A stretch of DNA of 64,000 nt from Promethearchaeota archaeon (lineage in GTDB: Archaea; Asgardarchaeota; Lokiarchaeia; Sigyniarchaeales; SOKP01), in the NCBI GenBank assembly GCA_016840085.1, contig JAEOTA010000081.1:32001-96000 (forward strand), written 5' to 3'. Positions 19,423-32,854 of the stretch are shown one piece after another. A program made the position numbers and the translations under genes. Below the pieces are notes generated by a model that searched no databases, was not told where the DNA came from, and saw nothing but the letters and a program-made list of their open reading frames with translations. Every line of letters starts with the position of its first letter. The stretch's first letter is position 1.

Positions 19423-19854
19423 CTATTTGTTATTGCTTAAAAATGAACTTAAATCCATGATATCATCGCCTCTTTTAACTTGGATCTTGCTTTTAATTCC
19501 TTTAATTTTTCGTTCTAGAAACATAATAGCATCAAGCGGAATTCTTCTAGGAATTCCTCCTCTTTGTCTAATAATCGCTAATAGATAGTCTATATTTTGC
19601 AGTACATCTGGACTTATCAATTCATTATATATTGCTTGGTAGACATTTGACTCTCTAACTTTTAAATTGTTCAAGTGATTGTATGCTTCAGGGGCTAATA
19701 CTACTTTTAATATAAATTCGATTTTTTCTGACATCGAAACGACTTTATCTTTTACTACATCTTGTTGCCTTTTAGCTTCCATTAATGCTTTCATTTTTCT
19801 CATGCGAATTTTTTCTAGTTCATGTTGTTCAAAGTTTCTATTAGTTTCATTCAT
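19423..19854 (-). CDS. PDCD5-like double-stranded DNA-binding protein
   Basis: ELEKIRMRKMKALM...ILKVVLAPEAYNHLNNLKV pattern of the PDCD5/DUF122 family. Confidence 0.7.
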   Translation of the reverse strand: MNETNRNFEQHELEKIRMRKMKALMEAKRQQDVVKDKVVSMSEKIEFILKVVLAPEAYNHLNNLKVRESNVYQAIYNELISPDVLQNIDYLLAIIRQRGGIPRRIPLDAIMFLERKIKGIKSKIQVKRGDDIMDLSSFLSNNK

Positions 19855-20047
19855 TTTCTTATCTATCTCTGTTATTTTGTTCTATTAATTATAGTTTAAT
19901 TTAAGATATACATCTTGTCATTAATTTGTTAAATTAAAACTCAATAAATAAATAATGGTGGCTAAAATAATAATTTTTTGAAGAAAAATTCCTTTTTCTT
20001 CTAATAATTAAATCTTAAAATTAGTAAAAATGGTCCCTCCCCCCGGA

Positions 20048-20076
20048 ATCTAGCTAGATCTGAAGTAGATCCGTAT
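20048..20076 (-). other. tRNA intron in the T-loop, position 59/60 (29 nt)
   Basis: Relaxed BHB: CTCG/CTAG helix, bulges AA|A and AT|T; inner hairpin GGATCT/AGATCT; removal restores a 7-nt T-loop. Confidence 0.85.
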
Positions 20077-20098
20077 TTCGAGCCGGGGACCGCTCGGT

Positions 20099-20153
20099 TT
20101 CAATTTCGGCTGACGTAACTTCATTAGCTACCAGCTTTAGTACGCGATATTAT
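20099..20153 (-). other. tRNA intron at canonical position 37/38 (55 nt)
   Basis: Relaxed BHB: CTGT/ATTG helix, bulges AG|A and AA|A; internal hairpin GCTGG-TAGCT...AGTTAC-GTCAGC. Confidence 0.9.
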
Positions 20154-20472
20154 CTACAGCCGAGCACTCTGACCACTGAGTTAGGGAGGGGATGTGTTTT
20201 AAAATTATATAATAATTTAATTAATTTATTTTTTATGATTTTCAATTTAGAGTAAATAATAACAAGAATTATTTTATTCTATACTTTTTTTAATACTCAT
20301 AAATAACCCTCTTTTGTTTAAGAAAACTTATTAAACAAAAAATTTTCCTATATTATTAACATAAAAATTTCCAATAAAAGATCGCAAAATACTTTTGTTG
20401 TGAAAAATTTAATTAATTAATGAATAGTTTTATAAAATTAAACTAATATTTTTTTAAGAAAGGTGATGAATA

Positions 20473-21012
20473 ATTAGAGAAGAGACTGATTATACAGAAT
20501 CTATTGAGAGTTATAAAAACGATCCAAACGTTATTCTAGAACCATGGGGTAGAAGTATAGATCATTTACGATTAACCATTATTGGTAAAAAAGGAACACC
20601 TTATGCTGATGGAAAGTTCGTTTTTGAAATCAAGTTCCCTGAGAACTACCCGTTCGCTCCGCCCTACGCTTACGCAGTTACTTTAATGTGGCACCCTAAC
20701 ATTGATTCATCTATTCCACCAGGGAAATTGAATATATGTTTAGATTTAATTAATCCAGATTTAGTAGGTAAAGTTGATGCGAGTACAGGAGCAAGCGGAT
20801 GGACACCTTCAAAAACTCTAACTAATATTATTGAAGCACTGAAGGGCATGATGCATATAGAGTTATGTGAATATCTCGCATAACGTGTAAAGCCGCCCTT
20901 CTTTAATCCTGGCGATCCCCTTAATCATGAAGCAGGTGAACAGTATTTTCGTGCTTTAAAGAAATTTGAAGCTAAAGCTAAAAGCTGGACAGCCAAATAT
21001 GCCATCGACTAG
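20473..21012 (+). CDS. Ubiquitin-conjugating enzyme E2; exons 20473-20860 and 20891-21012; 169 aa if spliced; probable ATT start
   Basis: GTPYADGKF, FPENYPFAPP, WHPNI, catalytic ICLDLI, WTPS, and after the insert NPGDPLNHEAG..Y......F...AKSWTAKYA; SD AAGGTGAT at 20460-20467. Confidence 0.92.
20861..20890 (+). other. Putative BHB mRNA intron in E2 (30 nt, in-frame TAA)
   Basis: Central helix ATAT/GTGT, bulges AG|A and AA|A, 9-bp inner stem GTTATGTGA/TCGCATAAC, outer GC/GC plus GAAGGGC/GCCCTTC; splice gives HIE-PPFFNP. Confidence 0.85.
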
Positions 21013-21026
21013 AGGAATTTAACTAT

Positions 21027-21058
21027 CTTTTATTTCCTATTTTTATTTTTTATGTTTT
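21027..21058 (+). terminator. T-rich archaeal-type terminator after E2
   Basis: Several oligo-T runs immediately after the E2 stop. Confidence 0.45.
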
Positions 21059-21210
21059 AATTTATTTGGTTTAAGAAATTCAAACTCATATTTCATAGAT
21101 TAGCTCATATCTCATAGATCACCTGTTATTATTAATAACCCAATTTCTTTAAATTGTTAATCCAAATATTTATTATAACGATTTGATTAAAGCAAATAAT
21201 TAATTAAAAA

Positions 21211-22092
21211 GTGGATTTATTGCTAAAAAAATCGACAGGGTTAAGATCTAAGGTTATAAAGATGGATAAATTTGATATCTCTTCTTTTACAGATATTTTA
21301 GCTGATAAGGCTGGAAAAATAATTCCAGAAATTTTCAAGGGTGTACAAAAAGCAAGAAGAGATTATAAAAATGAAATTAAAATACTTCCAGATGAGATTA
21401 AATATGCATCTGCAGAGTTATGGGAAGAGATTATTGGAAAAGCAATATCATTGGGAATAGATTTAATAGGATTTGCTCCTATTGATGAGAATTTAATTTT
21501 TGAGAATGATTATGTTGGTGGAATCGAAATGTTATATGAAAACGGAATTGTATTAGGTATGGAAATGAATTATGATGCAATAAATACTGCACCTAAACCC
21601 CCAGCAGGTTTAGAATCATTAAGAATTTATGCGGAATTAGGTAATGCTACGAATAAATTAGTTGATTTTATTCGTTCAAAAGGATATAAAGCAATTGCTT
21701 GTCATCCTTTAGGTGGTCCTATACTTTATCCCGCAATGGCAGTTAAAGCAAAATTAGGAAAAATAGGAAAGCAGGGTCTTTTAATCACAAAAAAGTATGG
21801 TCCCCGGCAAAGGTTATCTATTATTGCAATAAATGCTACTCCCCTTCCTGAAAATCAATGTGAAGATTTTGAAATTTCTGAGTTTTGTGAGAGATGTAGA
21901 AGATGCATTCATTTTTGCCCTGTTAATGCAATTTTTGAAGATCCTCTTGTCAAAAAAAATGGAACAATAACCCGAATCGATAGCAACAAATGTTTTGAGT
22001 ATTTTTACGAAACTACTGGTTGTTCAGTATGTATTGAAACATGTCCCTTTCATAAAATTGGTTCTGAAGTACTTTATTATAGACAGCTATAA
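21211..22092 (+). CDS. Epoxyqueuosine reductase/reductive dehalogenase-like 4Fe-4S protein
   Basis: AVKAKLGKIGKQGLLITKKYGPRQRL, FCERCRRCIHFCP, C...CSVCIETCP. Confidence 0.85.
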   Translation: MDLLLKKSTGLRSKVIKMDKFDISSFTDILADKAGKIIPEIFKGVQKARRDYKNEIKILPDEIKYASAELWEEIIGKAISLGIDLIGFAPIDENLIFENDYVGGIEMLYENGIVLGMEMNYDAINTAPKPPAGLESLRIYAELGNATNKLVDFIRSKGYKAIACHPLGGPILYPAMAVKAKLGKIGKQGLLITKKYGPRQRLSIIAINATPLPENQCEDFEISEFCERCRRCIHFCPVNAIFEDPLVKKNGTITRIDSNKCFEYFYETTGCSVCIETCPFHKIGSEVLYYRQL

Positions 22093-22126
22093 CAAATTCC
22101 CTAAATTATATTTAAATTAAGTAAAC

Positions 22127-22747
22127 ATGCGAAATATTTCTTTTAAAGATAAGAAAGTAATCATTTTTGATTTAGATGGGACTATTGTATACTTAAAAGC
22201 GGATTGGATATCTTTGAAAAGAAAACTAGTTGAAAAATATAATAAGCTTTATGATGATTATTGCAATTTTGATAGCGTGTCTGTATGTCTTAGTAAAATA
22301 GTAGAAAGAGAAGATGAAAAAGCGCTTGCAGATTTCATTAAAATTATTCGCCAGTATGAACTTGAAAATATCGAAGAAAACAAACCAATTAAAGAGTCAA
22401 TTTTTTTTATTAATAATAAAGAGTTATTTGGTATAGAAGAAAAGAGTAAATTCGTAATTTTGTCTCTTAATACAAGAAGTACTATAATCAAATCATTAAA
22501 ATTAGCGAAAATATTCAAAAAAATTGATTTTATAGTAGGAAGAGAGGATGTCCGAAAATGGAAACCAGATCCAGAAGGAATTTTTAAAATAAAAGCTCAT
22601 TATAATTTGAGAAATGAAGAAATGATTTATTTTGGGGATTTGGAAAAAGACATGATAACTGGGAAAAATGCTGGTATTGAAGCTTACTATATAGATGATT
22701 TAATTAATCTTGTTAATAAAAAGAAGTCTGGATTAAAAACTATCTAA
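22127..22747 (+). CDS. HAD-superfamily hydrolase (phosphoglycolate phosphatase-like)
   Basis: FDLDGT, KPDPEG, GD...D...GKNAG. Confidence 0.9.
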   Translation: MRNISFKDKKVIIFDLDGTIVYLKADWISLKRKLVEKYNKLYDDYCNFDSVSVCLSKIVEREDEKALADFIKIIRQYELENIEENKPIKESIFFINNKELFGIEEKSKFVILSLNTRSTIIKSLKLAKIFKKIDFIVGREDVRKWKPDPEGIFKIKAHYNLRNEEMIYFGDLEKDMITGKNAGIEAYYIDDLINLVNKKKSGLKTI

Positions 22748-22767
22748 ATTTGTTCCATAATAAGTTA

Positions 22768-23313
22768 TTAGATTTTCATAAAGGTAAAGACTTCATCCTT
22801 TTTTTCAATATATTTGAACAAACCATAATTAGTTACTTTTGTAATAATTTGATCGTCCTTTAGATGATGGTCATCAACTGATAACCATCCATTATCTTTT
22901 AAAACTCGATACAATTCTCTTAAAATATTTTCTGGATCTGATAAGTGATGAAAAATATCCAATAAAAGAACTACATCAACGGTATTATCTTCTAGTTTTG
23001 TATTACATTCAGTTAGAATTGTTTCAATATTACAAAGTCCTCTTTTTTCTGCTCTTTTTTTGACATCTTCAATAGCTAAAGGATGAATATCAGCTGCATA
23101 TACTTTTCCTGTCTTACCAACTGCCTCTGCTGCGGCAATAGTATAACTCCCTGGACCACATCCATAATCTAATACAAAATTTCCTTTTTTTATTTTAGTT
23201 TTTTCTATTTTTAGATTTGGTGGATAGTTTTTATCACGTTTTTCAAAATGTTTAATCATAAATTTAAAATGAGTTTTGCTCATGGGTTTATCTTTTTCCC
23301 TTTTTTCTGGAAT
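22768..23313 (-). CDS. Class I SAM-dependent methyltransferase; start uncertain (ATT 23313 or ATG 23283)
   Basis: VLDYGCGPG, VYAADIHP, VDVVLL, LYRVLK..G; SD GGGGTG 6 nt before ATT. Confidence 0.88.
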   Translation of the reverse strand: MPEKREKDKPMSKTHFKFMIKHFEKRDKNYPPNLKIEKTKIKKGNFVLDYGCGPGSYTIAAAEAVGKTGKVYAADIHPLAIEDVKKRAEKRGLCNIETILTECNTKLEDNTVDVVLLLDIFHHLSDPENILRELYRVLKDNGWLSVDDHHLKDDQIITKVTNYGLFKYIEKKDEVFTFMKI

Positions 23314-23363
23314 TACTAACACCCCTATTTTAAATATTAATATAAGAATAAAAAAATGGAATT

Positions 23364-24977
23364 TCACATAAAAGTGATTATAACATTATATTTTTTAATC
23401 TCTGATTCTGCTAGTGCTTTTCCCAAAGGAGTTAACATAATTATATCATTTGATTTTATTTTTACTGAAGTTAACTTAATATCAGGATCTTTTAGTGAAG
23501 GCATGTACGGATTCCAATAAATCTCTTTAGTCATTGGATTAGTAATCATCCAAAATTCTGGATCTAGTTTGTGTCCTGAAACTTCCATTGCGTTAAATAT
23601 ATAACCAATATCAGCGTCAAAAGGCACTACAATTTGTACATTTTCTTCACCTTCAATCTTTCCACATGCTAAACAATCATCTCTTTTTATGATGTTTAGA
23701 TGATCAAATTGACCGTAAATGCCATTGTAATTCACATAGGGAGGATCCATCGGAGATCCAATATTTCTGCTGTTAACTCGAAATAATAGTTTGAGTGCTT
23801 CTTGAGATTGGATACTTGCAATTACGGAACTAACTGTTTGGATTGCTGCTATTTTATTTCCGAGAATATTTTCCATTTCTTCAAATTTGTAATCTGGACC
23901 AAAAGTGTTTCTGATATTATTTTTCCATTCTTCAATCTCTGCTTCAGTTAATGTATCTCTTTTCTCTGGAGATACATTTTCATTAAATACTCGCTCTCTT
24001 AATTGTTCTAACTCCTCTTGAGCTAATTCTTTTAGTTTAAGAACGTCAACATTTAAATTAAGATCAGGTTTATGTCCATATTTTTTTTCAAAATTAACTT
24101 CAGCTTTTATAACACAATGATTTCTATTACGGGGTAACCCTTTTAACGTGCACGCTGCAACTAATTTATCGTCAGCTGGAGGAATTGGAACTAAGCATCT
24201 ATAACATGGAGTTTGATCTAAAAGTTCGGGGGCATATTTCCAATCAAAAACCATTTCAATCTCTCTTCTGAATTTTTCTTTTAATGGATTAATTTTTTCT
24301 TCATTTAACCGTTCTATTTCTTCTTCTAGGTCTTCAATTCTTTTCTGGGCTTGAAAATATTCAGGGTATTCCATTTCAGTAATTTCCCAAAGTCTTGCTT
24401 CTACTAAATTATCGATCTCTCTTTCTTTATCTTTATATTGTAAACCAGAACCCTCAGGGATTACAATTTGAACATGACCTTCAAAAGCATGTGTAGCTCC
24501 TTCGACCATAGGTTTTTTTAGTCTAAGACAGATTTTATTTAAGTCCAATCTAGCATTAAAATTATCTAATGCTCCTATAACTACATCTGCTTCTTCATAT
24601 ACAGCCATAGGTAATTTTTGAAGCTTTTCAAAATAAAAATCAACTTTTAGAAAAAGATTCATTTCTTTCAATCGTTCTGCTGCCACTTCAGCTTTAGGTC
24701 GTCCCTCATCTCCCGGTTTAAATAGCATTTGTCTAGATAAATTTGAGGTTTCAATAGTATCTAAATCCACTAAGATCAGTTTACCTATACCCATCAGAGC
24801 GAAATCTTTTGCGATTTCACAGCCCTTCACGAAAATTATTGTTTATAATATTCCTAATGCGCCTACTCCGATGATTAAAATACATCCCTTATTTATAACA
24901 TCTTGATCCCAGCCATCAATTAATTGTTGTCGGGCATACATGCGCGACTTAACAAAATCTTCTACTTTTTCAGTCAT
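23364..24977 (-). CDS. Ubiquitin-activating enzyme E1 (Uba2/Uba3-like architecture); exons 24977-24855 and 24824-23364; 527 aa if spliced
   Basis: YARQ...GW.Q..I....ILIIGVGAL|GCEIAK, DLDTIETSNLSRQMLF, KAEVAA, LDNFNAR, CYRC, catalytic ACTL...PRN..HC, CLAC, C-terminal ubiquitin-fold-like domain. Confidence 0.92.
24825..24854 (-). other. Putative BHB-like mRNA intron in E1 (30 nt, in-frame TAA)
   Basis: Central helix GCAT/GTGA (one G-A mismatch), bulges TA|G and AG|G, inner stem GAATATTAT/ATAATTTTC, outer GGC/GCT; splice restores GVGALGCE. Confidence 0.8.
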
Positions 24978-25074
24978 TTTTAATGCCTTTATTTGTGGGT
25001 ATTATAATAATATTATTTTTTCATCAGAATTTAAACTCTTTTAGTTAATTTTAGAGATAGGTTATTTTTAATTT

Positions 25075-26460
25075 CCCTTTATGAAATCAAAATTCTATTC
25101 TTTATTTTAACTATGAAATCGTAATAGAATATGGGTGTAACCCTACACCCTCTATCCCATCTGCCAATATGGCTTTTGGGACTGCTTTTTTAAGGATATT
25201 ATATGCACCATTTACATCCGCATTGATAATAATCCCTTCTTGACTGTGATATAAACCCCTACAAATACGCTTTCCTTGAAATTTTTCATGTTTTTTTATA
25301 GATTCATTATCTAAGAAACTACATCTCGAAGTGAAAGATTCTGGCTCTAATATAACATCAATCTCGATTAACTCTGATTTATATTTAATTTGGGACATAA
25401 ATTTGGAAAAAGGAATTTGGACAAAGTTTTGGTTATTACGCTTTCCAATTTTTATTTTATGTTTCCAAGATTTATTATAACCAATGACTATCGTTCCAAA
25501 ATTGTGGTTAATGCAATAATTTATCACTGCTCTCGAAATTTTATGGAAGATATCATTAATTTTATTGTTTCTTTTCCGGGTTAGCCATTGCATTCTTTTT
25601 GTTTCAGAACCGATCCCTTGCTTATCCTTTTTGCTTTTATATCTAGCAAGTTGTTTGTTGTAGAATTGATTAATAGATTTCACAACACCACCTTTAATAA
25701 CAACAGGTTGTAACCCCGCATTATTTACCATAGTTATGATATTGTTCAACCCCAAATCAATCCCAATAACTCTCTTTTTATCTAAATTCAAATTTTTTAC
25801 TTCCTTTTTATAAATAATTTCTAAGATATAATATAATCCTTTTGGAATAATTCTGACGTGGTGTAATTTACTTTTTATACGGGTTTTAACGGGAGGTAAT
25901 TGAGTTTTTTTCGGGAAATAAAGAAAAGCTCCCTTGATCATGCATTGTTGATTCGTAAAAATAATCATACACTCGCCATCTTTCTTTTTGTAACGTGGCG
26001 GTTTTGGAGATCCTAAGTAATTCTCTGGCTGCTTTTTGTGGTTTTTAAGAGATTGGAAAAATGATTTCCAATTTTTATCCACGAGTTTTAAAATTTGCTG
26101 AGCAGTTTGTGAAGGGAGCTTTTTATATGGTTCTTTCTCTTTTAGCATATACCATAAGTCGTAATATCTCAACCAATTACCTAAATAAAAAAACTCTTGT
26201 CTCACATAATAATTGGCAAGATTATAGAGATTTTTAGATAAATGACATAGATAAGATAATTGTGGAGTGTTCTTTAATTGAATCTGTTCTGTTAACCTCA
26301 TTTCCATAATATTGAAGGAGAATTTCAGATTTAAAAGAAAAGAGACTGAAGATTTATATTTGATAAAAGAATTTAAAAAAATTAAGGGAAATTAAGAATT
26401 CTCTAGAGATATAAAAAGTATATAGAAAATGATACGTATTAAGCCTATAAAAAAGTATAA
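25075..26460 (-). mobile_element. Solo-tnpB (IS1341-like) element without tnpA; boundaries approximate
   Basis: tnpB alone; 3' hairpin GGGTGTA-N4-TACACCC (25133-25150); direct repeats TATAAAAA(A)GTATA at 26410 and 26446. Confidence 0.6.
25111..26307 (-). CDS. tnpB: TnpB RNA-guided endonuclease (IS200/IS605/IS607 superfamily), rearranged RuvC type
   Basis: SKNLYNLANY, GIDLGLNN (RuvC-I), IVIGYNKSWK, EPESFTSRC, NADVNGAYNI (RuvC-III). Confidence 0.95.
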   Translation of the reverse strand: MEMRLTEQIQLKNTPQLSYLCHLSKNLYNLANYYVRQEFFYLGNWLRYYDLWYMLKEKEPYKKLPSQTAQQILKLVDKNWKSFFQSLKNHKKQPENYLGSPKPPRYKKKDGECMIIFTNQQCMIKGAFLYFPKKTQLPPVKTRIKSKLHHVRIIPKGLYYILEIIYKKEVKNLNLDKKRVIGIDLGLNNIITMVNNAGLQPVVIKGGVVKSINQFYNKQLARYKSKKDKQGIGSETKRMQWLTRKRNNKINDIFHKISRAVINYCINHNFGTIVIGYNKSWKHKIKIGKRNNQNFVQIPFSKFMSQIKYKSELIEIDVILEPESFTSRCSFLDNESIKKHEKFQGKRICRGLYHSQEGIIINADVNGAYNILKKAVPKAILADGIEGVGLHPYSITIS

Positions 26461-26485
26461 TTATTAAAATTAAAAAAGCAATATT

Positions 26486-29400
26486 TTAAGTTTTTTTACT
26501 TTTATCAGCTTTTTTAATCATTTTTTTAAGATTATCAATTTCTTCCCTTTCTTTAGCTTGTTTTAATCTTTTTTGTTCTTTCTTCTTTTCCATTTCCTTT
26601 TTCTCAATCTCATCTATAAGTTCTTGTTTAATTTTAATCAAATCACTCATTTTCTTACTGAATTCTTTTGCTTCATCTTTGATTTGTTCTTTTTGCTTTT
26701 TTTCTTTTAATTTTGCTTTACTCCGTCCCTCTTCAATCATTTTCATAACTTTATCTGTATCAATACTAACTTCACTAATTGCTTGTTTCATTTCGGCATC
26801 TTTAGATTCTCTTCTACTTTTTTCTAAGGACCTTTGTTTTTCTAATTGCTTTTGAATTTCATTAATTCGTGATTCCTCGGCTTTAACTCTTTCTTCCAAA
26901 ATCTTAGCATTTTTTATTTCGGTTTCAATATATTTTATCTCTTCTTTCCATCCAATTTCTTTAAATTTAGAAATAGCTGTATTGAACTTTTCATAAGCAT
27001 TTTCAAAATCATGATACGCTGCTAATCTCTTTCCATCATCAATATATTTTAATCCTTCATCTCTAATTTGATCAAAATGTTTCTTTTTAACAAATAATTC
27101 TCTATATTGTTTTTCTTGTCCACGCTTCAGTTGTTCTTGTTCCAATCTTTTCCTTCTTACCTCTTCTTGAAACTTTTCATATTCTATTTGTCTTTGTATT
27201 CGAGCCTCTTCCTCTAACTTCTTCTTTTTAATATAATTAACTTGTTCTTGTTGTAAATCTTTGATTAATGCATTTAAATTATTTATTTCTGGTTCCCATC
27301 CTATATTTTCAGCTAAAATATTTCTTGCTTGGACATATAAAGAAATTGCATTATTAAAATCTGGATTAAGTTGTTTCAAGTATTTTCCGGCTTCGTCGAG
27401 CAAAGAATAAGCAGATTCCCTGACAGTCATTTGTTCTTGAATCATTCTTTCCCTTTGTTTTTGAGCTAATAATTGTGCTCTTTTCTTTTCTTCTTCTTGC
27501 CTTTTTCTTTCATCTATAAGAATTTTTAATGCTTTTTCTTCTTCTAATTTCTCAAATTCTTTCTGAAATTTTAATTCTTCTTGTTCTACTTCTTGCTTCT
27601 TTAATTTATTAACCTTAAGAATCATATTATTAATAGAATCTGTTGGAAACTGTAATTCATTCAAGATTAATCCTGCTTTTCTATATCTTTCAATAGCGTT
27701 TTCATAATTCGATGCTTTTAGAAATTTCTCTGCATCATCAAGGATTTTAAATGCAGATTCTTTCCTCTTCTCAAGTCTAGCTTTCAATTCTTCTTTCTCC
27801 TGGATCTCGATTTGCTTATTCTGTAATCTTTCTCTTTCGTTTTTAAAAAAAGTAGATATTTGTTCTTCAAACTCCCACACCTCTCTTTCTCTCTGTATAC
27901 TGAGTTCTAAATCCTTTTGTCTTTGTAATTGATGGTCTTTTTTCTTCTCTCGGACTTTTTGAATTGTTTCTCTAATTGCTTCTGTTGGGAATGAAATTTC
28001 GTTTAAAATTAATTCTGCTGTATGATAATATTCAAGTGCTTTATTATATCGCGCTTGATTCATATATATCTCTGCTTCATCTAGTATACTAAAAGCCTCA
28101 TCTTTTCTCTTTTCCATATAAGCACGATGCTTTTTTTGTTTTTCAAGTTCATTCTGCTGACTCTTCATTCTCAATTCATTAATTTTTATGCTTTCAGCTA
28201 TTTTTTGTTGAAAATCAAATTGTTCACGCTCTTTCTGAAGTTTAGATTCTAACTCCATTTGCTTTGTAGTTATTTCTTCCCTACTTTTCATTTGAACCTT
28301 ATAAATCATATCTCTAATCAAATTTGTTGGAAATCCTATTTCACTTAAAATTAATTCTGCTTTATGATACATTTCAGTTGCTTTATCATATTCAGCTTGC
28401 TTTAACAACTTTTCAGCAAGATCCATAATCTCAAAGGCTTCTATTTTACGTGATTCCATTTTCTGTAATAAATTTTCGCGTTCTTGTATTTTTAATTCTT
28501 TTAATTCTAATCTTTTCTTTTCTCTTAACATACTTTCAGAGATCTTTGATTGAAATTGTTGTTGTTCTTGTTGTTGGTTAATCTTCAATTCTTGTTCTAT
28601 TTCTTTTTGTTTTTCTAAATCTCTCTTTCTCTTTTCAATTGTATTTATCGTATTAGTTAATAACTTCAGATATTCACGGGTCCAACCTATTTCAGTTAAT
28701 ATATGAATCGCATGTTGATAACTTACTAATGCATTATCAAAATCTTTGTGTTTAACTGATTCATACCCATTATTAATTAAATTAAAAGCTTCTTGTTGCT
28801 TGACTAAATTTTGAGCACTTATGAGTTTTTGACTTTTTAAATTTTCTTCTTCTTCTATTGCCATTGCTCTTTCTTTCTTTCTGTATAATTTTATTTGTTC
28901 CATAAACTCATAATTCGCTTTTTCCTTATCTATTGATTCTTGTAGTAATTTTGCCTTTTGTATATCATCTTCTCTCTTTTTTTTCATGATATTCTGAATT
29001 GCATTTTCAAGAATGGGTATTTCATCGTCCCATTGAATTTGGGCAAAATTGTTTGCAACATCTCGATATATATCAATTGACTCTTCAAATCTTCCTTTCG
29101 AGAGTAAATCTTGAGCTTTATCCAATAATTTAAAACCCTCTTCTCTTTTTTTCTCTCTATATACTAATTCTTCTTCTTTTTTTCTTAATTTTATCTCTCT
29201 TTGTCTTAATTTTTCACGTTGAGTTTTCATTTCTTCTGATATAAGTTCATGAAATAATTTTTCTTCCTTTTCTCGCTCAAGACTTGCTTTTAATTCCATC
29301 TGTTTTTTAACTTCCATCTTATATTTTTTATTCTCAACCTCATTAATAGATCTTTGAATTAAATCAATTTCATCATGCCATTGAATCTCTGTAAAAATAT

Positions 29401-32400
29401 CCGTAGCGTTATAGTATACTGTGATTGCTTTATCAAAATCATTTTGTTCAATATGTTTTTGTGCTTCTTCTAAAAGTTTGAAAGCTTCTTCTTTTCTCTT
29501 TTCAGTTATTAATCTAATTTCTTCCAGTTTTCTCAGTTCCTCTTGTTTTTCTTTCATTTTAAGCTGTTCTAATTTCATTTTTTCTGTTATCTGTTGTTGG
29601 AATAGGCGCTCTTCTTGTTCTCTTCTAAGATTTAATTCGAGTTCTTTTAATTTATTCAAATCATCATCTCTCTTTTTCTCCTGGATTTTTTGAATCATTT
29701 CTCTGATAATAGTTGTAGGAAAAAAAATTTCATTGAAAATTAATTCTGAATTACGATAAAGTTCAATTGATTTATCATATTCACTTTGATTTAATAACTC
29801 TTCAGCTTGATCCATAATCTCAAATGCTTCTATTTTACGTTTTTTCATTTTTTGTAACAAATCTTCACGTTTTTGAACTTCAATTACCTTAGAGTTTAAT
29901 CTTTCTTTCTCTTTTCGTATATAGTTTGAAATTTTATTTTGAAATTGTTCCTCTTCTTTTTGACGGTTTAATGCAGCTTCAAATTCTATCTGCTTTACCT
30001 TTTCCTTTCTTTCTTTGCTTTCTTGAATAGATTGAATTGTGTCTTTTAGTAATTTTAAATAATCTTCTCGCCACCCTATTCCTTTTAAGATATTTATTGC
30101 ATTTTCATAATTTTCTATAGCTTTCGCGAAGTTTTCTTCTTTGAGAATATTTTCGGCTTCTTCAATAATATTAAATGCTCTTTCTTGTTCAACTAAATTT
30201 TGGGCTGAAATTTTTTTCTGTTTTTCAAGTATTTTTTGCTCTTTTAATGCTTCTACTTTTTCTCTTTCTCTTTGAAGTAGAATCTTGTTCATAAAAGCTT
30301 TATCAACAGTTTCTTTTTCAATTGCCTTTTGTAATAATTTTTGTTTATAGAGTTCATTCTCTCTCTTTTTCTCTTTTATATCCTCTATTGTAGTTTGAAT
30401 AATTGGAATTTCTTCTGTCCATTGAATTTGAGCAAAGATATTGGCTACATCATAATATATTTCAAGAGTATTATCAAACTTTCCAAAAGAAAGGAAATTT
30501 TGAGCTTTTTCTAGCAAATCAAATGCTTCATTCTTTTTATTTGCTTGATAGGCTCTTAAATTCTCTTTTTCACTTAATGCAATTTCCTTTTCTTTCAATC
30601 TTTCACGTTGAGCTTTCATTTCTCTAGTGATGAGCTCTTGAAACCTTTTTTCTTCCTTTTCATGCTCAAAATCAGCTTGAATTTTCAATTGTTTTTGTAA
30701 TTCGGCCTCTTTTTTCTGATTTTCAATTTCTATAATAGAATTTTGAATTAAGCTTATTTCGTTTTGCCAATTCGCATCTGCAAAAAAATTGATAGCATAT
30801 TGCAATATTTCAATAGCTTTATCAAAATAACCTTGTTTTAAATTATCCTGTGATTCCTCTAATAATTTAAAACCTGATTTTCTTCTTTCTTCACGATATT
30901 GTAATTCTTTTTCCCGTCCTCTTAATTCAATTTCTTGTTTTTTCAGTTTTTCTCTTTCTTGTTTTAAATATTTTGTAATTTGCTTTTGAAAATCTTCTTC
31001 TTTTTTTTCTCTTTCTAAAGTTTCTTGCATCTTTTTTTGTCTTAAAATCTTTTGATCACGTTTTAGTTCTTCAACTTGATGTATAGAATTTTCAATCAAA
31101 GGAATTTCCTCAGTCCATCGTATTTCAGCAAAAATATTGCCTGCATTTTGGTACTCCTCGATTGCATTATTATATTCACCTCTTTTAACGAAACTTAATG
31201 CTGAATCTAGAAATTCAAAAGCCTTTTTCCTCCGCTCCTTAAAATATTTTACTTCTTCCTCCTTTTCCTTTAATATGATCTCTTTTTTCTTTAAATGTTC
31301 ACGCTCTTTATTTAATTGAGTAGCAATTTGCTTCTGAAAATCAATTTCAGCTTCTTCCCTTTTTTCCAAACGTTTTTGGTCTTCATATTGCTTCTTGAGT
31401 CGAGAATCTTTTATCTTCTCTATATTTAATATTGTATTCTTAATTGTATTAATGTAAGTTTCCCACCCTGTTCCTAAATCTTCAAGAATTACCAACCCTT
31501 CTTTATATTCATTGATAGCTCTTTCAAAGTTTTTTTCTTTTAAAATTTCATCTGCTTTATCTAAAATTTTAAAGAGATCCTTCTCTTTTTCTGCATAATC
31601 TCTTTTTTTTAATTCAAATTCTTCCCTTTTATTCTCTAAATCTTTAGCAGATTCTATTGCTTGCTTCATTTCCTTTAAATAAATAGATTCTTGAACTCTA
31701 AATAATTCTCTTTCTCGTTTTTCTTTAAGACCCTCAGTTTTTTTCTCTCTTTCTTGTTTTTCCTTTATCCCATTTATTAAATTAATCACTGGTTGAATAT
31801 AAGAATCCCATTCTATTGATTTGAGGAGCTGAATCGCTTCTTCAAGTTTCTCGATTGCGTGATTATAATCTTTTTCTCTTTCAAACTTCTTTCCTATATC
31901 AATTAAATTGAAAGCTTTTATTTGTACTTGCTCTTCTATTCTCTTCTTTTCTTCAAACTCAATAAGTTTTTTTCTTTGTAAATCTGCTTCTGAAGTTAAA
32001 GCTTCTGATTCTCCCTCAATTTTACTAGATACCATTGAAATAGCTTGTTTTTGTTGAGTTTGAAAATTTTCAATATGCTCTTTATCTTTTCTAAGTTTTT
32101 CAATAATAGCTAAAATATTCTGAGTTTGGGCAATCCAACCTATAGAATTTAATAATTGGACTGCTTCTTTATAATTATTTATAGCGTTATCAAATTTCTT
32201 TTCCTTTTCAAATATCTTGGCTTTATCAATAAGAGAAAAAGCTTCATTTTGTACTTCTTCTTCACGTCTCTTTTGTTCTCTATATCTAGCAATCGTTTCT
32301 GCTTTTTCTGGAGTAGATTTTTCTCCAAACATTCCAACAATTTGAGGTGATTGTTCTACTTGCTGTTGTGAGATTTGTTCTGAAGATATTTTCTCTTGTT

Positions 32401-32854
32401 GTTGTTTTAATTGAAATTCTTGTTGTTGCTTAATATTATTTGCGAGTTTTTTTATTTTTACTCTCAGATTTTCTAATTGTACTTCAGGCCAACCCGATTG
32501 GGCTAATAAATTAATAGCTGACATGTATTGCTGAATAGCATCTTCATAAAAACCATTAGATTCTAACTCTTTTGCTCCTTCTAAAAGTGAAAAAGCTTGA
32601 TCTTGTACTTGTTCAATTTGAGCCTGGATCTGAGTATGTTCATAAAATTTTTCTTGTTTAAGAAAATTTTTTAATTCTTCTATTCTTTCATATATATCTT
32701 GAATTCTATGAGTTAAAATTCCGCTTTGCTTTAGGTATTTAGCAGCTTTTTGATAATGGGATATTGCCTTTTCTGCATTTTTTTCCTCTTCAAAATTTTG
32801 CGCAAGTTCTAAAAATTTTAAGGCTTCTTGAGCCAATTCGTCTGGATTTTGCAT
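26486..32854 (-). CDS. Giant helical repeat protein (~18 units of TPR/MIT-like hairpin plus charged coiled coil)
   Basis: Recurring AF.(L/I)(L/I)(D/E).A ... AI..Y..A..I...I.W about every 115 aa. Confidence 0.85.
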   Translation of the reverse strand: MQNPDELAQEALKFLELAQNFEEEKNAEKAISHYQKAAKYLKQSGILTHRIQDIYERIEELKNFLKQEKFYEHTQIQAQIEQVQDQAFSLLEGAKELESNGFYEDAIQQYMSAINLLAQSGWPEVQLENLRVKIKKLANNIKQQQEFQLKQQQEKISSEQISQQQVEQSPQIVGMFGEKSTPEKAETIARYREQKRREEEVQNEAFSLIDKAKIFEKEKKFDNAINNYKEAVQLLNSIGWIAQTQNILAIIEKLRKDKEHIENFQTQQKQAISMVSSKIEGESEALTSEADLQRKKLIEFEEKKRIEEQVQIKAFNLIDIGKKFEREKDYNHAIEKLEEAIQLLKSIEWDSYIQPVINLINGIKEKQEREKKTEGLKEKRERELFRVQESIYLKEMKQAIESAKDLENKREEFELKKRDYAEKEKDLFKILDKADEILKEKNFERAINEYKEGLVILEDLGTGWETYINTIKNTILNIEKIKDSRLKKQYEDQKRLEKREEAEIDFQKQIATQLNKEREHLKKKEIILKEKEEEVKYFKERRKKAFEFLDSALSFVKRGEYNNAIEEYQNAGNIFAEIRWTEEIPLIENSIHQVEELKRDQKILRQKKMQETLEREKKEEDFQKQITKYLKQEREKLKKQEIELRGREKELQYREERRKSGFKLLEESQDNLKQGYFDKAIEILQYAINFFADANWQNEISLIQNSIIEIENQKKEAELQKQLKIQADFEHEKEEKRFQELITREMKAQRERLKEKEIALSEKENLRAYQANKKNEAFDLLEKAQNFLSFGKFDNTLEIYYDVANIFAQIQWTEEIPIIQTTIEDIKEKKRENELYKQKLLQKAIEKETVDKAFMNKILLQREREKVEALKEQKILEKQKKISAQNLVEQERAFNIIEEAENILKEENFAKAIENYENAINILKGIGWREDYLKLLKDTIQSIQESKERKEKVKQIEFEAALNRQKEEEQFQNKISNYIRKEKERLNSKVIEVQKREDLLQKMKKRKIEAFEIMDQAEELLNQSEYDKSIELYRNSELIFNEIFFPTTIIREMIQKIQEKKRDDDLNKLKELELNLRREQEERLFQQQITEKMKLEQLKMKEKQEELRKLEEIRLITEKRKEEAFKLLEEAQKHIEQNDFDKAITVYYNATDIFTEIQWHDEIDLIQRSINEVENKKYKMEVKKQMELKASLEREKEEKLFHELISEEMKTQREKLRQREIKLRKKEEELVYREKKREEGFKLLDKAQDLLSKGRFEESIDIYRDVANNFAQIQWDDEIPILENAIQNIMKKKREDDIQKAKLLQESIDKEKANYEFMEQIKLYRKKERAMAIEEEENLKSQKLISAQNLVKQQEAFNLINNGYESVKHKDFDNALVSYQHAIHILTEIGWTREYLKLLTNTINTIEKRKRDLEKQKEIEQELKINQQQEQQQFQSKISESMLREKKRLELKELKIQERENLLQKMESRKIEAFEIMDLAEKLLKQAEYDKATEMYHKAELILSEIGFPTNLIRDMIYKVQMKSREEITTKQMELESKLQKEREQFDFQQKIAESIKINELRMKSQQNELEKQKKHRAYMEKRKDEAFSILDEAEIYMNQARYNKALEYYHTAELILNEISFPTEAIRETIQKVREKKKDHQLQRQKDLELSIQREREVWEFEEQISTFFKNERERLQNKQIEIQEKEELKARLEKRKESAFKILDDAEKFLKASNYENAIERYRKAGLILNELQFPTDSINNMILKVNKLKKQEVEQEELKFQKEFEKLEEEKALKILIDERKRQEEEKKRAQLLAQKQRERMIQEQMTVRESAYSLLDEAGKYLKQLNPDFNNAISLYVQARNILAENIGWEPEINNLNALIKDLQQEQVNYIKKKKLEEEARIQRQIEYEKFQEEVRRKRLEQEQLKRGQEKQYRELFVKKKHFDQIRDEGLKYIDDGKRLAAYHDFENAYEKFNTAISKFKEIGWKEEIKYIETEIKNAKILEERVKAEESRINEIQKQLEKQRSLEKSRRESKDAEMKQAISEVSIDTDKVMKMIEEGRSKAKLKEKKQKEQIKDEAKEFSKKMSDLIKIKQELIDEIEKKEMEKKKEQKRLKQAKEREEIDNLKKMIKKADKSKKT

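What the first reader, a model, noticed from the sequence alone, without database searches (positions are those of the whole stretch)
24815..24866. BHB-like intron inside the GxGxxG ATP-binding loop of the ubiquitin E1 gene
The ORF track starts E1 at MKGCEIAK and misses exon 1 (ATG 24977; MTEKVEDFVKSRMYARQQLIDGWDQDVINKGCILIIGVGAL), which ends at TAA 24845-24843. Minus-strand RNA reads GGC-GCAT-TA|G-GAATATTAT-AAACA-ATAATTTTC-GTGA-AG|G-GCT, i.e. outer helix, central helix with one G-A mismatch, two 3-nt bulges and an inner stem. Removing 24854-24825 gives GCA TTA GGC TGT GAA, restoring GVGALGCE. An insert in this loop would abolish adenylation, yet the other ~486 codons are intact, which argues for splicing rather than decay. 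The weaker motif could mean slower or conditional splicing than E2 (inference). The junction can slide up to 2 nt because of a GG repeat.
Basis: partly seen in the sequence, partly recalled or inferred. Interest (0 to 1): 0.9.

Follow-up and report, generated by a model that had tools for sequence, protein, structure and literature searches.

The report
tRNA-type intron in Asgard E1 gene
The ubiquitin-type E1 activating-enzyme gene of this Asgard archaeon (Promethearchaeota, Loki-type) is cut in its ATP-binding loop by a 30-base insert shaped like a tRNA intron; two genera keep it at the same site with compensating base changes, so the messenger RNA almost certainly has to be spliced, which the papers I could search confirm for only one other archaeal coding sequence (cbf5).

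Summary
Observation confirmed. Removing 24854-24825 gives a 527-aa E1 with GVGALGCE. A 30-nt insert sits at this exact site in 9 of 154 genomes of the order (two genera); 98 are intronless. Across 16 versions, the central and inner helices show compensatory changes, and the bulge-helix-bulge (BHB) cut site is the only junction that fits all of them. Every version keeps an in-frame stop, yet both exons stay under purifying selection (exon 2 dN/dS 0.06-0.12). In this genus, synonymous sites are frozen over a 19-pair exon-exon scaffold that ends where the helices end. Carriers are not monophyletic, which suggests gain by recombination as well as loss. Seven other genes' inserts of 30-31 nt and non-canonical tRNA introns occur in the same genome. 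Caveats: no spliced transcript was found; the motif is 'relaxed' (3 of 4 central pairs); the catalytic EndA subunit is missing from this assembly, along with its neighbours. E1/E2 co-gating is not conserved. The scan noted BHB mRNA introns before in at least 88 genomes.

The parts
24855..24977 (-). E1 exon 1, 41 codons, ending in GVGAL (first half of the GxGxxG nucleotide-binding loop); missed by the ORF caller as part of the gene
   Evidence: dN far below dS among carriers
24825..24854 (-). 30-nt phase-0 intron: last bulge base + 9-bp stem (one U.U) + 5-nt loop + stem + 4-nt central strand + 2 bulge bases; in-frame TAA at 24845-24843
24821..24863 (-). BHB core: outer helix 24863-24861 with 24823-24821; central helix 24860-24857 with 24830-24827 (G.A, C-G, A-U, U-G); bulges 24856-24854 and 24826-24824; predicted cuts 24855/24854 and 24825/24824
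   Evidence: sequence; pair counts
24865..24874 (-). 5' strand of a 10-bp exon-exon helix (pairs with 24800-24791)
   Evidence: 10/10 pairs in all 12 carrier sequences of the genus, 7-10 in intronless ones
24791..24818 (-). Exon-2 side hairpin (24818-24801, 6 bp) and 3' strand of the exon-exon helix (24800-24791); synonymous sites frozen up to codon +10
23364..24824 (-). E1 exon 2, 486 codons plus stop: ThiF domain, two CxxC pairs, catalytic Cys motif (Cys266 of the spliced protein, codon 24152-24150)
   Evidence: dN/dS 0.055-0.12
20861..20890 (+). Companion 30-nt BHB insert in the neighbouring E2 gene (about 20473-21012); same 1+9+5+9+4+2 geometry, unrelated sequence, 4/4 central pairs; found only in this genome among those checked
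20031..20190 (-). tRNA-Tyr(GUA) that forms a cloverleaf only after removing 55 nt (20153-20099) and a 29-nt T-loop intron (20078-20050): local positive control that this cell processes non-canonical BHB introns
   Evidence: ARAGORN score 118 after removal

Best explanation
It is a tRNA-type (bulge-helix-bulge) pre-mRNA intron. SHOWN: the insert interrupts the GxGxxG loop with an in-frame stop; removal at the BHB register restores the orthologous 527-aa E1; structure and both exons are under selection. [quoted passage not shown] In this genus the long exon scaffold probably compensates for the 3-of-4 central helix (the second genus has 4/4 in three of four genomes and no conserved scaffold). 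The intron is most likely a near-neutral passenger on the tRNA-splicing machinery, gained and lost repeatedly, partly by short recombination tracts between related cells, and not a conserved regulator.
For: Same site and same 30-nt length in 16 distinct versions from two genera; no genome has both forms. Covariation: 5 of 13 core pairs change on both sides, score 0.276 against 0.154 in shuffles and at most 0.137 for slid partners; the exon-intron pair A-U/G-C changes at a synonymous site together with an intron base; a competing helix shows no two-sided change. Register 0 is the only junction compatible with all versions. Exon 2 dN/dS 0.055-0.12 among carriers against 0.055-0.10 in intronless pairs; exon 1 dN is also low. 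Synonymous identity between carrier clades is 0.85/0.82 in codons -7..+11 against about 0.5-0.6 elsewhere and 0.47/0.49 in intronless genes; exon variation inside the helices is only C/U opposite G. This is the only E1-type gene in the assembly. Seven further 30-31-nt frame-breaking hairpin inserts in core genes (E2, EF-2 twice, uS3 twice, purA, a Zn-ribbon gene). tRNA genes carry 17-41-nt BHB introns at non-canonical positions. Catalytic EndA alpha in 24 of 24 congeners and beta in most; RtcB present.
Against: No spliced junction was found in JGI contigs, genome contigs or short protein fragments; these collections are mostly DNA, so this is weak. The central helix is only 3/4 in the whole genus, which is 'relaxed', not canonical. 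Nearest-neighbour folding puts the BHB conformer 8.7 kcal/mol above the minimum in this genome. The catalytic EndA alpha gene is not in this assembly; only the His-less beta-like subunit is. Its usual neighbours, including A-ATPase subunit A, are missing too, which points to an assembly gap. Covariation counts are inflated by relatedness; independent events are few (about 5-8).
Confidence: 0.9

Rival explanations
1. Pseudogene or neutral disrupting insertion: E1 is dead in carriers.
For: In-frame stop; 98 relatives lack the insert; no transcript evidence.
Against: Intact 486-codon exon 2 in every carrier clade across dS of about 1.7, with dN/dS like intronless genes; covariation inside the insert; no second E1-type copy in the assembly.
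Confidence: 0.01
2. Translational recoding (stop read-through, ribosomal bypass) or re-initiation at the GTG inside the insert, giving a split two-chain E1.
For: In clade A a GTG two codons before the Gly gives an open 488-aa frame; the insert is 3n long and forms a hairpin.
Against: The GTG is GCG or ACG in the other carriers, and the second genus has a second stop as the last codon of the insert. The insert's residues are not conserved and the stop varies (TAA, TGA, TAG, moved or doubled). There is no matching take-off/landing Leu codon before the Gly. Ten extra residues would split the ATP loop. The exon-intron covariation has no role in these models.
Confidence: 0.03
3. The RNA is spliced, but by another route (a different nuclease/ligase pair such as an Ire1-like or guide-dependent system) that uses the hairpin and scaffold rather than a BHB.
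For: G.A at the first central position in the whole genus; BHB conformer not the predicted minimum; EndA alpha not seen in this assembly.
Against: 4+3 spacing kept at both ends in all versions and in seven other inserts; 4/4 central helix in the second genus; same geometry as tRNA introns of this genome; alpha present in all congeners.
Confidence: 0.04
4. Assembly or sequencing artefact.
For: Metagenome-assembled genome with 7.6% contamination.
Against: Independent assemblies from NCBI, ENA, JGI and Logan carry diverged versions at the same site.
Confidence: 0.005
5. Compatible with the best explanation: the intron is a selected regulatory gate that ties ubiquitin-like conjugation to tRNA-splicing capacity, together with the E2 intron.
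For: E1 and E2 both interrupted 4 kb apart beside an intron-rich tRNA; an in-frame stop is kept in all 16 versions, including TAA-to-TGA and TAA-to-TAG changes; G.A never repaired in the genus.
Against: E2 is uninterrupted in every other E1-intron genome or contig checked (G024, G018, G095, G102, G057, G058, G060 and four contigs). About nine in ten relatives lack the E1 intron. Like inserts fall in unrelated genes. Stop-to-stop changes are common transitions.
Confidence: 0.1

Closest known systems
cbf5 pre-mRNA intron of Desulfurococcales and Sulfolobales (Watanabe 2002; Yoshinari 2006; Yokobori 2009, PMC2738675)
   Same: Short intron (16-44 nt there, 30 here) in an essential motif of a protein gene; frequently relaxed BHB; cut between bulge positions 2 and 3; host has a heteromeric EndA; patchy presence with losses.
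   Different: Different gene and phylum, no homology. Here the length is fixed at 30 nt, the exons form a long scaffold with frozen synonymous sites, monophyly of carriers is rejected (it was not rejected for cbf5), the genome has at least eight such inserts, and splicing has not been shown.
Non-canonical tRNA introns of Asgard archaea (bioRxiv 10.64898/2026.10.13.758758)
   Same: BHB geometry, repeated gains, (alpha-beta)2 EndA background; that paper's classifier would score this boundary as 'relaxed' (3 of 4 central pairs).
   Different: The preprint treats tRNA genes only ('mRNA' does not occur in its text) and found no general route of arrival; here the host is an mRNA and the flanks suggest recombinational transfer.
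BHB intron in the 5' UTR of Haloferax HVO_1309 (PMC7714728)
   Same: EndA-processed intron in a messenger RNA.
   Different: 46 nt, in the untranslated leader, does not break a reading frame; shown in vivo and in vitro.
HAC1/XBP1 unconventional splicing in eukaryotes (own knowledge)
   Same: Non-spliceosomal removal of a short intron from an mRNA with ligation by the tRNA ligase (RtcB in animals); exons zip together.
   Different: Cut by Ire1 in two stem-loops, stress-regulated; no BHB; a functional analogy only.

Membership tests
BHB (EndA/RtcB) introns, canonical hBHBh' | Four Watson-Crick or G-U pairs in the central exon-intron helix | tested here: not met
   3 of 4 (G.A) here and in all 12 versions of the genus; 4 of 4 in three of four genomes of the second genus
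BHB (EndA/RtcB) introns, relaxed class | Central helix with at least 3 of 4 pairs, two 3-nt bulges, cuts after the second bulge base coinciding with the real insertion boundaries | tested here: met
   Register 0 restores the orthologous sequence and is the only register common to all versions
BHB (EndA/RtcB) introns, relaxed class | Flanking helices of at least 2 pairs in exon (h) and intron (h') | tested here: met
   Outer 3 bp plus 10 bp; inner 3 contiguous pairs, 8 of 9 in all
BHB (EndA/RtcB) introns, relaxed class | Host encodes a heteromeric EndA able to cut relaxed motifs, and RtcB | tested here: inconclusive
   Beta-like subunit and RtcB present; alpha not in this assembly, its neighbours are missing too; alpha in 24 of 24 congeners; substrate range not measurable
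BHB (EndA/RtcB) introns, relaxed class | Spliced mRNA or excised circle observed; cleavage in vitro | not testable with these tools
   Indirect searches for a spliced junction found none
cbf5 intron family | Located in the catalytic Asp codon of cbf5 in Crenarchaeota | tested here: not met
   Host gene is a ThiF-family E1 of Promethearchaeota
Canonical ubiquitin/Ubl E1 (UBA1/UBA2/UBA3 type) | GxGxxG adenylation domain, catalytic Cys domain, zinc CxxC pairs, closer to UBA proteins than to MoeB/ThiF | tested here: met
   Best solved relatives of an intronless orthologue are UBA1 (E 3e-37), UBA6, UBA3; MoeB 2e-24; motifs at residues 37, 248, 266, 425; E2 gene nearby in relatives
Canonical ubiquitin/Ubl E1 (UBA1/UBA2/UBA3 type) | Activates ubiquitin itself rather than another Ubl | not tested
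   Several ubiquitin-family genes lie elsewhere in the genome; specificity unknown
Group I/II or homing-endonuclease introns | Ribozyme core or intron-encoded ORF | tested here: not met
   30 nt; no Rfam match of that kind in 19500-26500
Ribosomal bypass (T4 gene 60, byps) | Matched take-off and landing codons around the coding gap | tested here: not met
   Codon before the gap is Leu; codon before the resumed Gly is Lys, Asn or stop

The most novel reading that the evidence does not exclude
Promethearchaeota splice protein-coding mRNAs routinely with the tRNA machinery, and this E1 intron behaves as a mobile, ORF-less unit: a 30-nt hairpin plus the roughly 50-90 nt of exon that folds with it passes between related species and genera by homologous recombination, so that coding exons carry an RNA scaffold whose synonymous sites are frozen to let EndA cut a mismatched BHB.
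Probability: 0.5. Interest if true: 0.85.

Novelty: new variant of a known kind. Interest (0 to 1): 0.72.

Why it matters
In the papers I could search, archaeal mRNA splicing inside a coding sequence is confirmed for cbf5 alone (PMC2738675, PMC7714728), and a 2026 preprint on Asgard BHB introns covers tRNAs only. A conserved, covarying intron in the E1 of the closest archaeal relatives of eukaryotes makes it testable whether intron-interrupted protein genes and exon-encoded splicing constraints existed before the spliceosome. It offers a defined 93-nt substrate for Asgard EndA and a case of how such introns spread, which that preprint names as the open problem. In practice, public annotations truncate this E1 to 476-490 aa without its ATP-binding loop, so Asgard gene inventories are mis-called.

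Tried and rejected
Genome-wide bare BHB scan: no excess over a mirrored control, with or without an ORF-joining filter (one search timed out), so motif counts were not used as evidence. First census by HSP gaps and loose DNA alignment was noisy; only the protein-restoring filter was trusted. Of its seven hits, five (E1, E2, uS3 twice, purA) were targeted from leads and two were blind among about 840 genes from a 1.6-Mb sample of G006, so no genome-wide count is claimed. The second uS3 insert has only 2 of 4 central pairs at the best register. Spliced-junction searches found only intron-bearing contigs and no fragment close enough to a carrier lineage; the intronless sister of clade C is genomic (the difference counts were out of register and are not used). 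No donor for the intron sequence elsewhere in the genome. EndA alpha sought by tblastn and a profile, not found. A 120-protein tree did not finish; DNA trees were used. RNAalifold leaves the central helix unpaired. E1/E2 co-gating rejected as a conserved system. Any link to the upstream IS605 element rejected: carriers without it keep the intron. No structure prediction was run because the stop codon makes the 10-residue insertion moot.

Full report
1. The observation. The minus strand at 24977-23364 is as described. Exon 1 runs from ATG 24977 to 24855 (41 codons); read on, it ends GIL-stop at 24845-24843. Removing 24854-24825 gives a 527-aa frame with GVGALGCE, the length of most intronless homologues. 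Four registers (-1 to +2) give the same product here. The host is a Promethearchaeota (Loki-type Asgard) genome, judged by the names of its closest homologues. The protein is a canonical-type E1: an intronless orthologue matches UBA1, UBA6 and UBA3 better than MoeB, and the spliced product has the catalytic Cys motif at residue 266 and two CxxC pairs. It is the only such gene in the assembly.

2. More than chance? A bare BHB pattern is as frequent as its mirror image in this A+T-rich genome, so the motif alone is not evidence. What counts is that it falls on boundaries defined independently by homology. Twenty same-genus genomes read straight through the site, and three carry 30 extra bases exactly there. 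Across the order, a pattern search finds the interrupted form in 9 of 154 genomes (five in this genus, four of four in a second genus) and the continuous form in 98, never both. Contigs from ENA, NCBI, JGI and Logan add more versions; 16 distinct ones were aligned. All are 30 nt. In the versions ending AAU only the BHB register restores Leu-Gly, so it is the one junction common to all.

3. Selection on the RNA structure. Over the 13 core pairs, 5 show changes on both sides; the covariation score is 0.276 against 0.154 in shuffles and at most 0.137 when partners are slid. The most telling pair joins a synonymous exon base (Ala GCA/GCG) to an intron base: A-U in five versions, G-C in eleven. The alternative helix that energy models prefer in some versions has no two-sided change. 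The first central position is G.A throughout this genus and G-U in the second genus. Relatedness inflates these counts; independent events are few. In this genus the exons add a 10-bp helix, a 3-bp helix and a 6-bp side hairpin. All 12 carrier sequences form 19 of 19 of these pairs; variation inside them is only C/U opposite G. Between the five carrier clades, synonymous codons are 85% and 82% identical in codons -7 to +11, against about 50-60% in the rest of the gene and 47-49% for the same window in intronless genes; variation resumes at codons -8 and +11, where the helices end. The second genus lacks this scaffold, which suggests (inference) that it compensates for the G.A pair.

4. Selection on the protein. 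Exon 2 has dN/dS 0.055-0.12 among carriers, against 0.055-0.10 in intronless pairs; exon 1 also has low dN. Every version keeps an in-frame stop (TAA, TGA or TAG; two stops in some), and the internal GTG exists only in one clade. This excludes decay, read-through and re-initiation as general explanations, and no matched codons for bypassing exist.

5. Machinery and context. The genome has RtcB and one EndA gene that lacks the catalytic His. The catalytic alpha subunit is present in all 24 congeners and in the second genus but was not found here; its neighbours, including A-ATPase subunit A, are absent as well, so an assembly gap is the likely reason. tRNA genes of this genome need BHB introns removed at non-canonical positions, several of 25-31 nt, including tRNA-Tyr 4.6 kb away. 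A comparison with about 840 genes from an intronless congener plus targeted loci gave seven frame-breaking inserts whose removal restores the protein; all are 30-31 nt hairpins and six pass a BHB rule, with about 0.1 expected from shifted positions. An eighth, in the EF-2 P-loop, is visible. Only two of the seven were found blind.

6. History. A tree of exon 2 without the junction region needs five changes of state, and monophyly of carriers is rejected (p-AU 1e-46). Clade D differs from its intronless sister at 23 of 90 bases around the site against 11% gene-wide (P about 7e-5), is identical to other carriers across the scaffold, and its intron is 2 bases from one in clade B: this fits gain through a short recombination tract. 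The intronless sister of clade C keeps the frozen 3' flank (1 difference in 33), which fits loss. One intronless pair also exceeds its background (P 0.01), so these tests are suggestive only. A 13-base core shared with the second genus indicates one origin.

7. Mechanism. Transcription; exon zipping around the hairpin; two EndA cuts; RtcB ligation; translation of the 527-aa E1. The structure, the boundaries and the selection are shown; the enzymes and the reaction are inferred from the cbf5 and tRNA precedents (PMC2738675). Confidence 0.9. No spliced junction was found. The BHB conformer is 8.7 kcal/mol above the predicted minimum here, 3-4 in most relatives and 2.8 for E2, so slower splicing is possible but untested. 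The E2 insert (20861-20890) is real but private to this genome; all other E1-intron genomes checked have an intact E2, so joint gating of the cascade is not a conserved system.

8. Comparison and verdict. It works like the cbf5 intron and belongs to the relaxed BHB class by geometry; it fails the canonical 4-pair test and is not homologous to the cbf5 intron. Literature searches found no report of BHB introns in Asgard protein genes; a 2020 paper names cbf5 as the only earlier case, and the 2026 Asgard preprint covers tRNAs only. Most subscription papers are not searchable. This scan has noted the phenomenon in at least 88 genomes, with one note citing spliced RNA for other genes; I did not check that and do not count it as evidence. 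Verdict: new variant of a known kind; interest 0.72.

Noticed in passing
window 20861-20890 (+): 30-nt BHB insert in E2 with 4/4 central pairs and a perfect 9-bp stem; absent from 29 relatives including the nearest (G024), so a recent gain.
   Followed up: yes
window 20460-20475 (+): E2 has no in-frame ATG; it appears to start at ATT 20473 behind a GGTGA ribosome-binding motif, and some relatives have Met at that position.
   Followed up: partly
window 20031-20190 (-): tRNA-Tyr(GUA) with a 55-nt anticodon intron (which seems to hold a nested 23-nt BHB intron) and a 29-nt T-loop intron; missed by ARAGORN.
   Followed up: partly
window 25111-26307 (-): IS605-family TnpB gene inserted between the giant repeat-protein gene and E1 exon 1; five near-full copies at 86-90% elsewhere in the genome; absent at this place in relatives; it may have changed E1's promoter context.
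   Followed up: partly
G000 assembly (neighbourhood of L163, L169 in relatives): EndA alpha, MEMO1-like gene and A-ATPase subunit A are all missing from an assembly rated 98.8% complete.
   Followed up: partly
G000 C4:16173 and about 16300; C49:155064; C49:147258; C85:142161 and 142251: 30-31-nt BHB-type inserts in EF-2 (two), a Zn-ribbon gene, purA and uS3 (two); the second uS3 insert has only 2 of 4 central pairs but a 9/9 stem.
   Followed up: partly
G012:C5:68102-68523: E2 of G012 is split into two frames with a TAG near residue 53-63: another insert or a frameshift.
   Followed up: no
G065:C116:19948 and G153:C150:3041: Intronless E1 genes whose junction codons match those of the second carrier genus: possible relics of intron loss.
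   Followed up: no
window 26486-32854 (-): 2122-aa repeat protein (faint TPR/MIT hits) lies upstream of E1 in all relatives examined.
   Followed up: no
window 24430-24240 approx. (-): The E1 has a long charged helical insertion before the first CxxC.
   Followed up: no
L218 (G024:C3:33302): uS3 of G024 also has a shortened open frame (185 aa) next to a run of N; not resolved.
   Followed up: no
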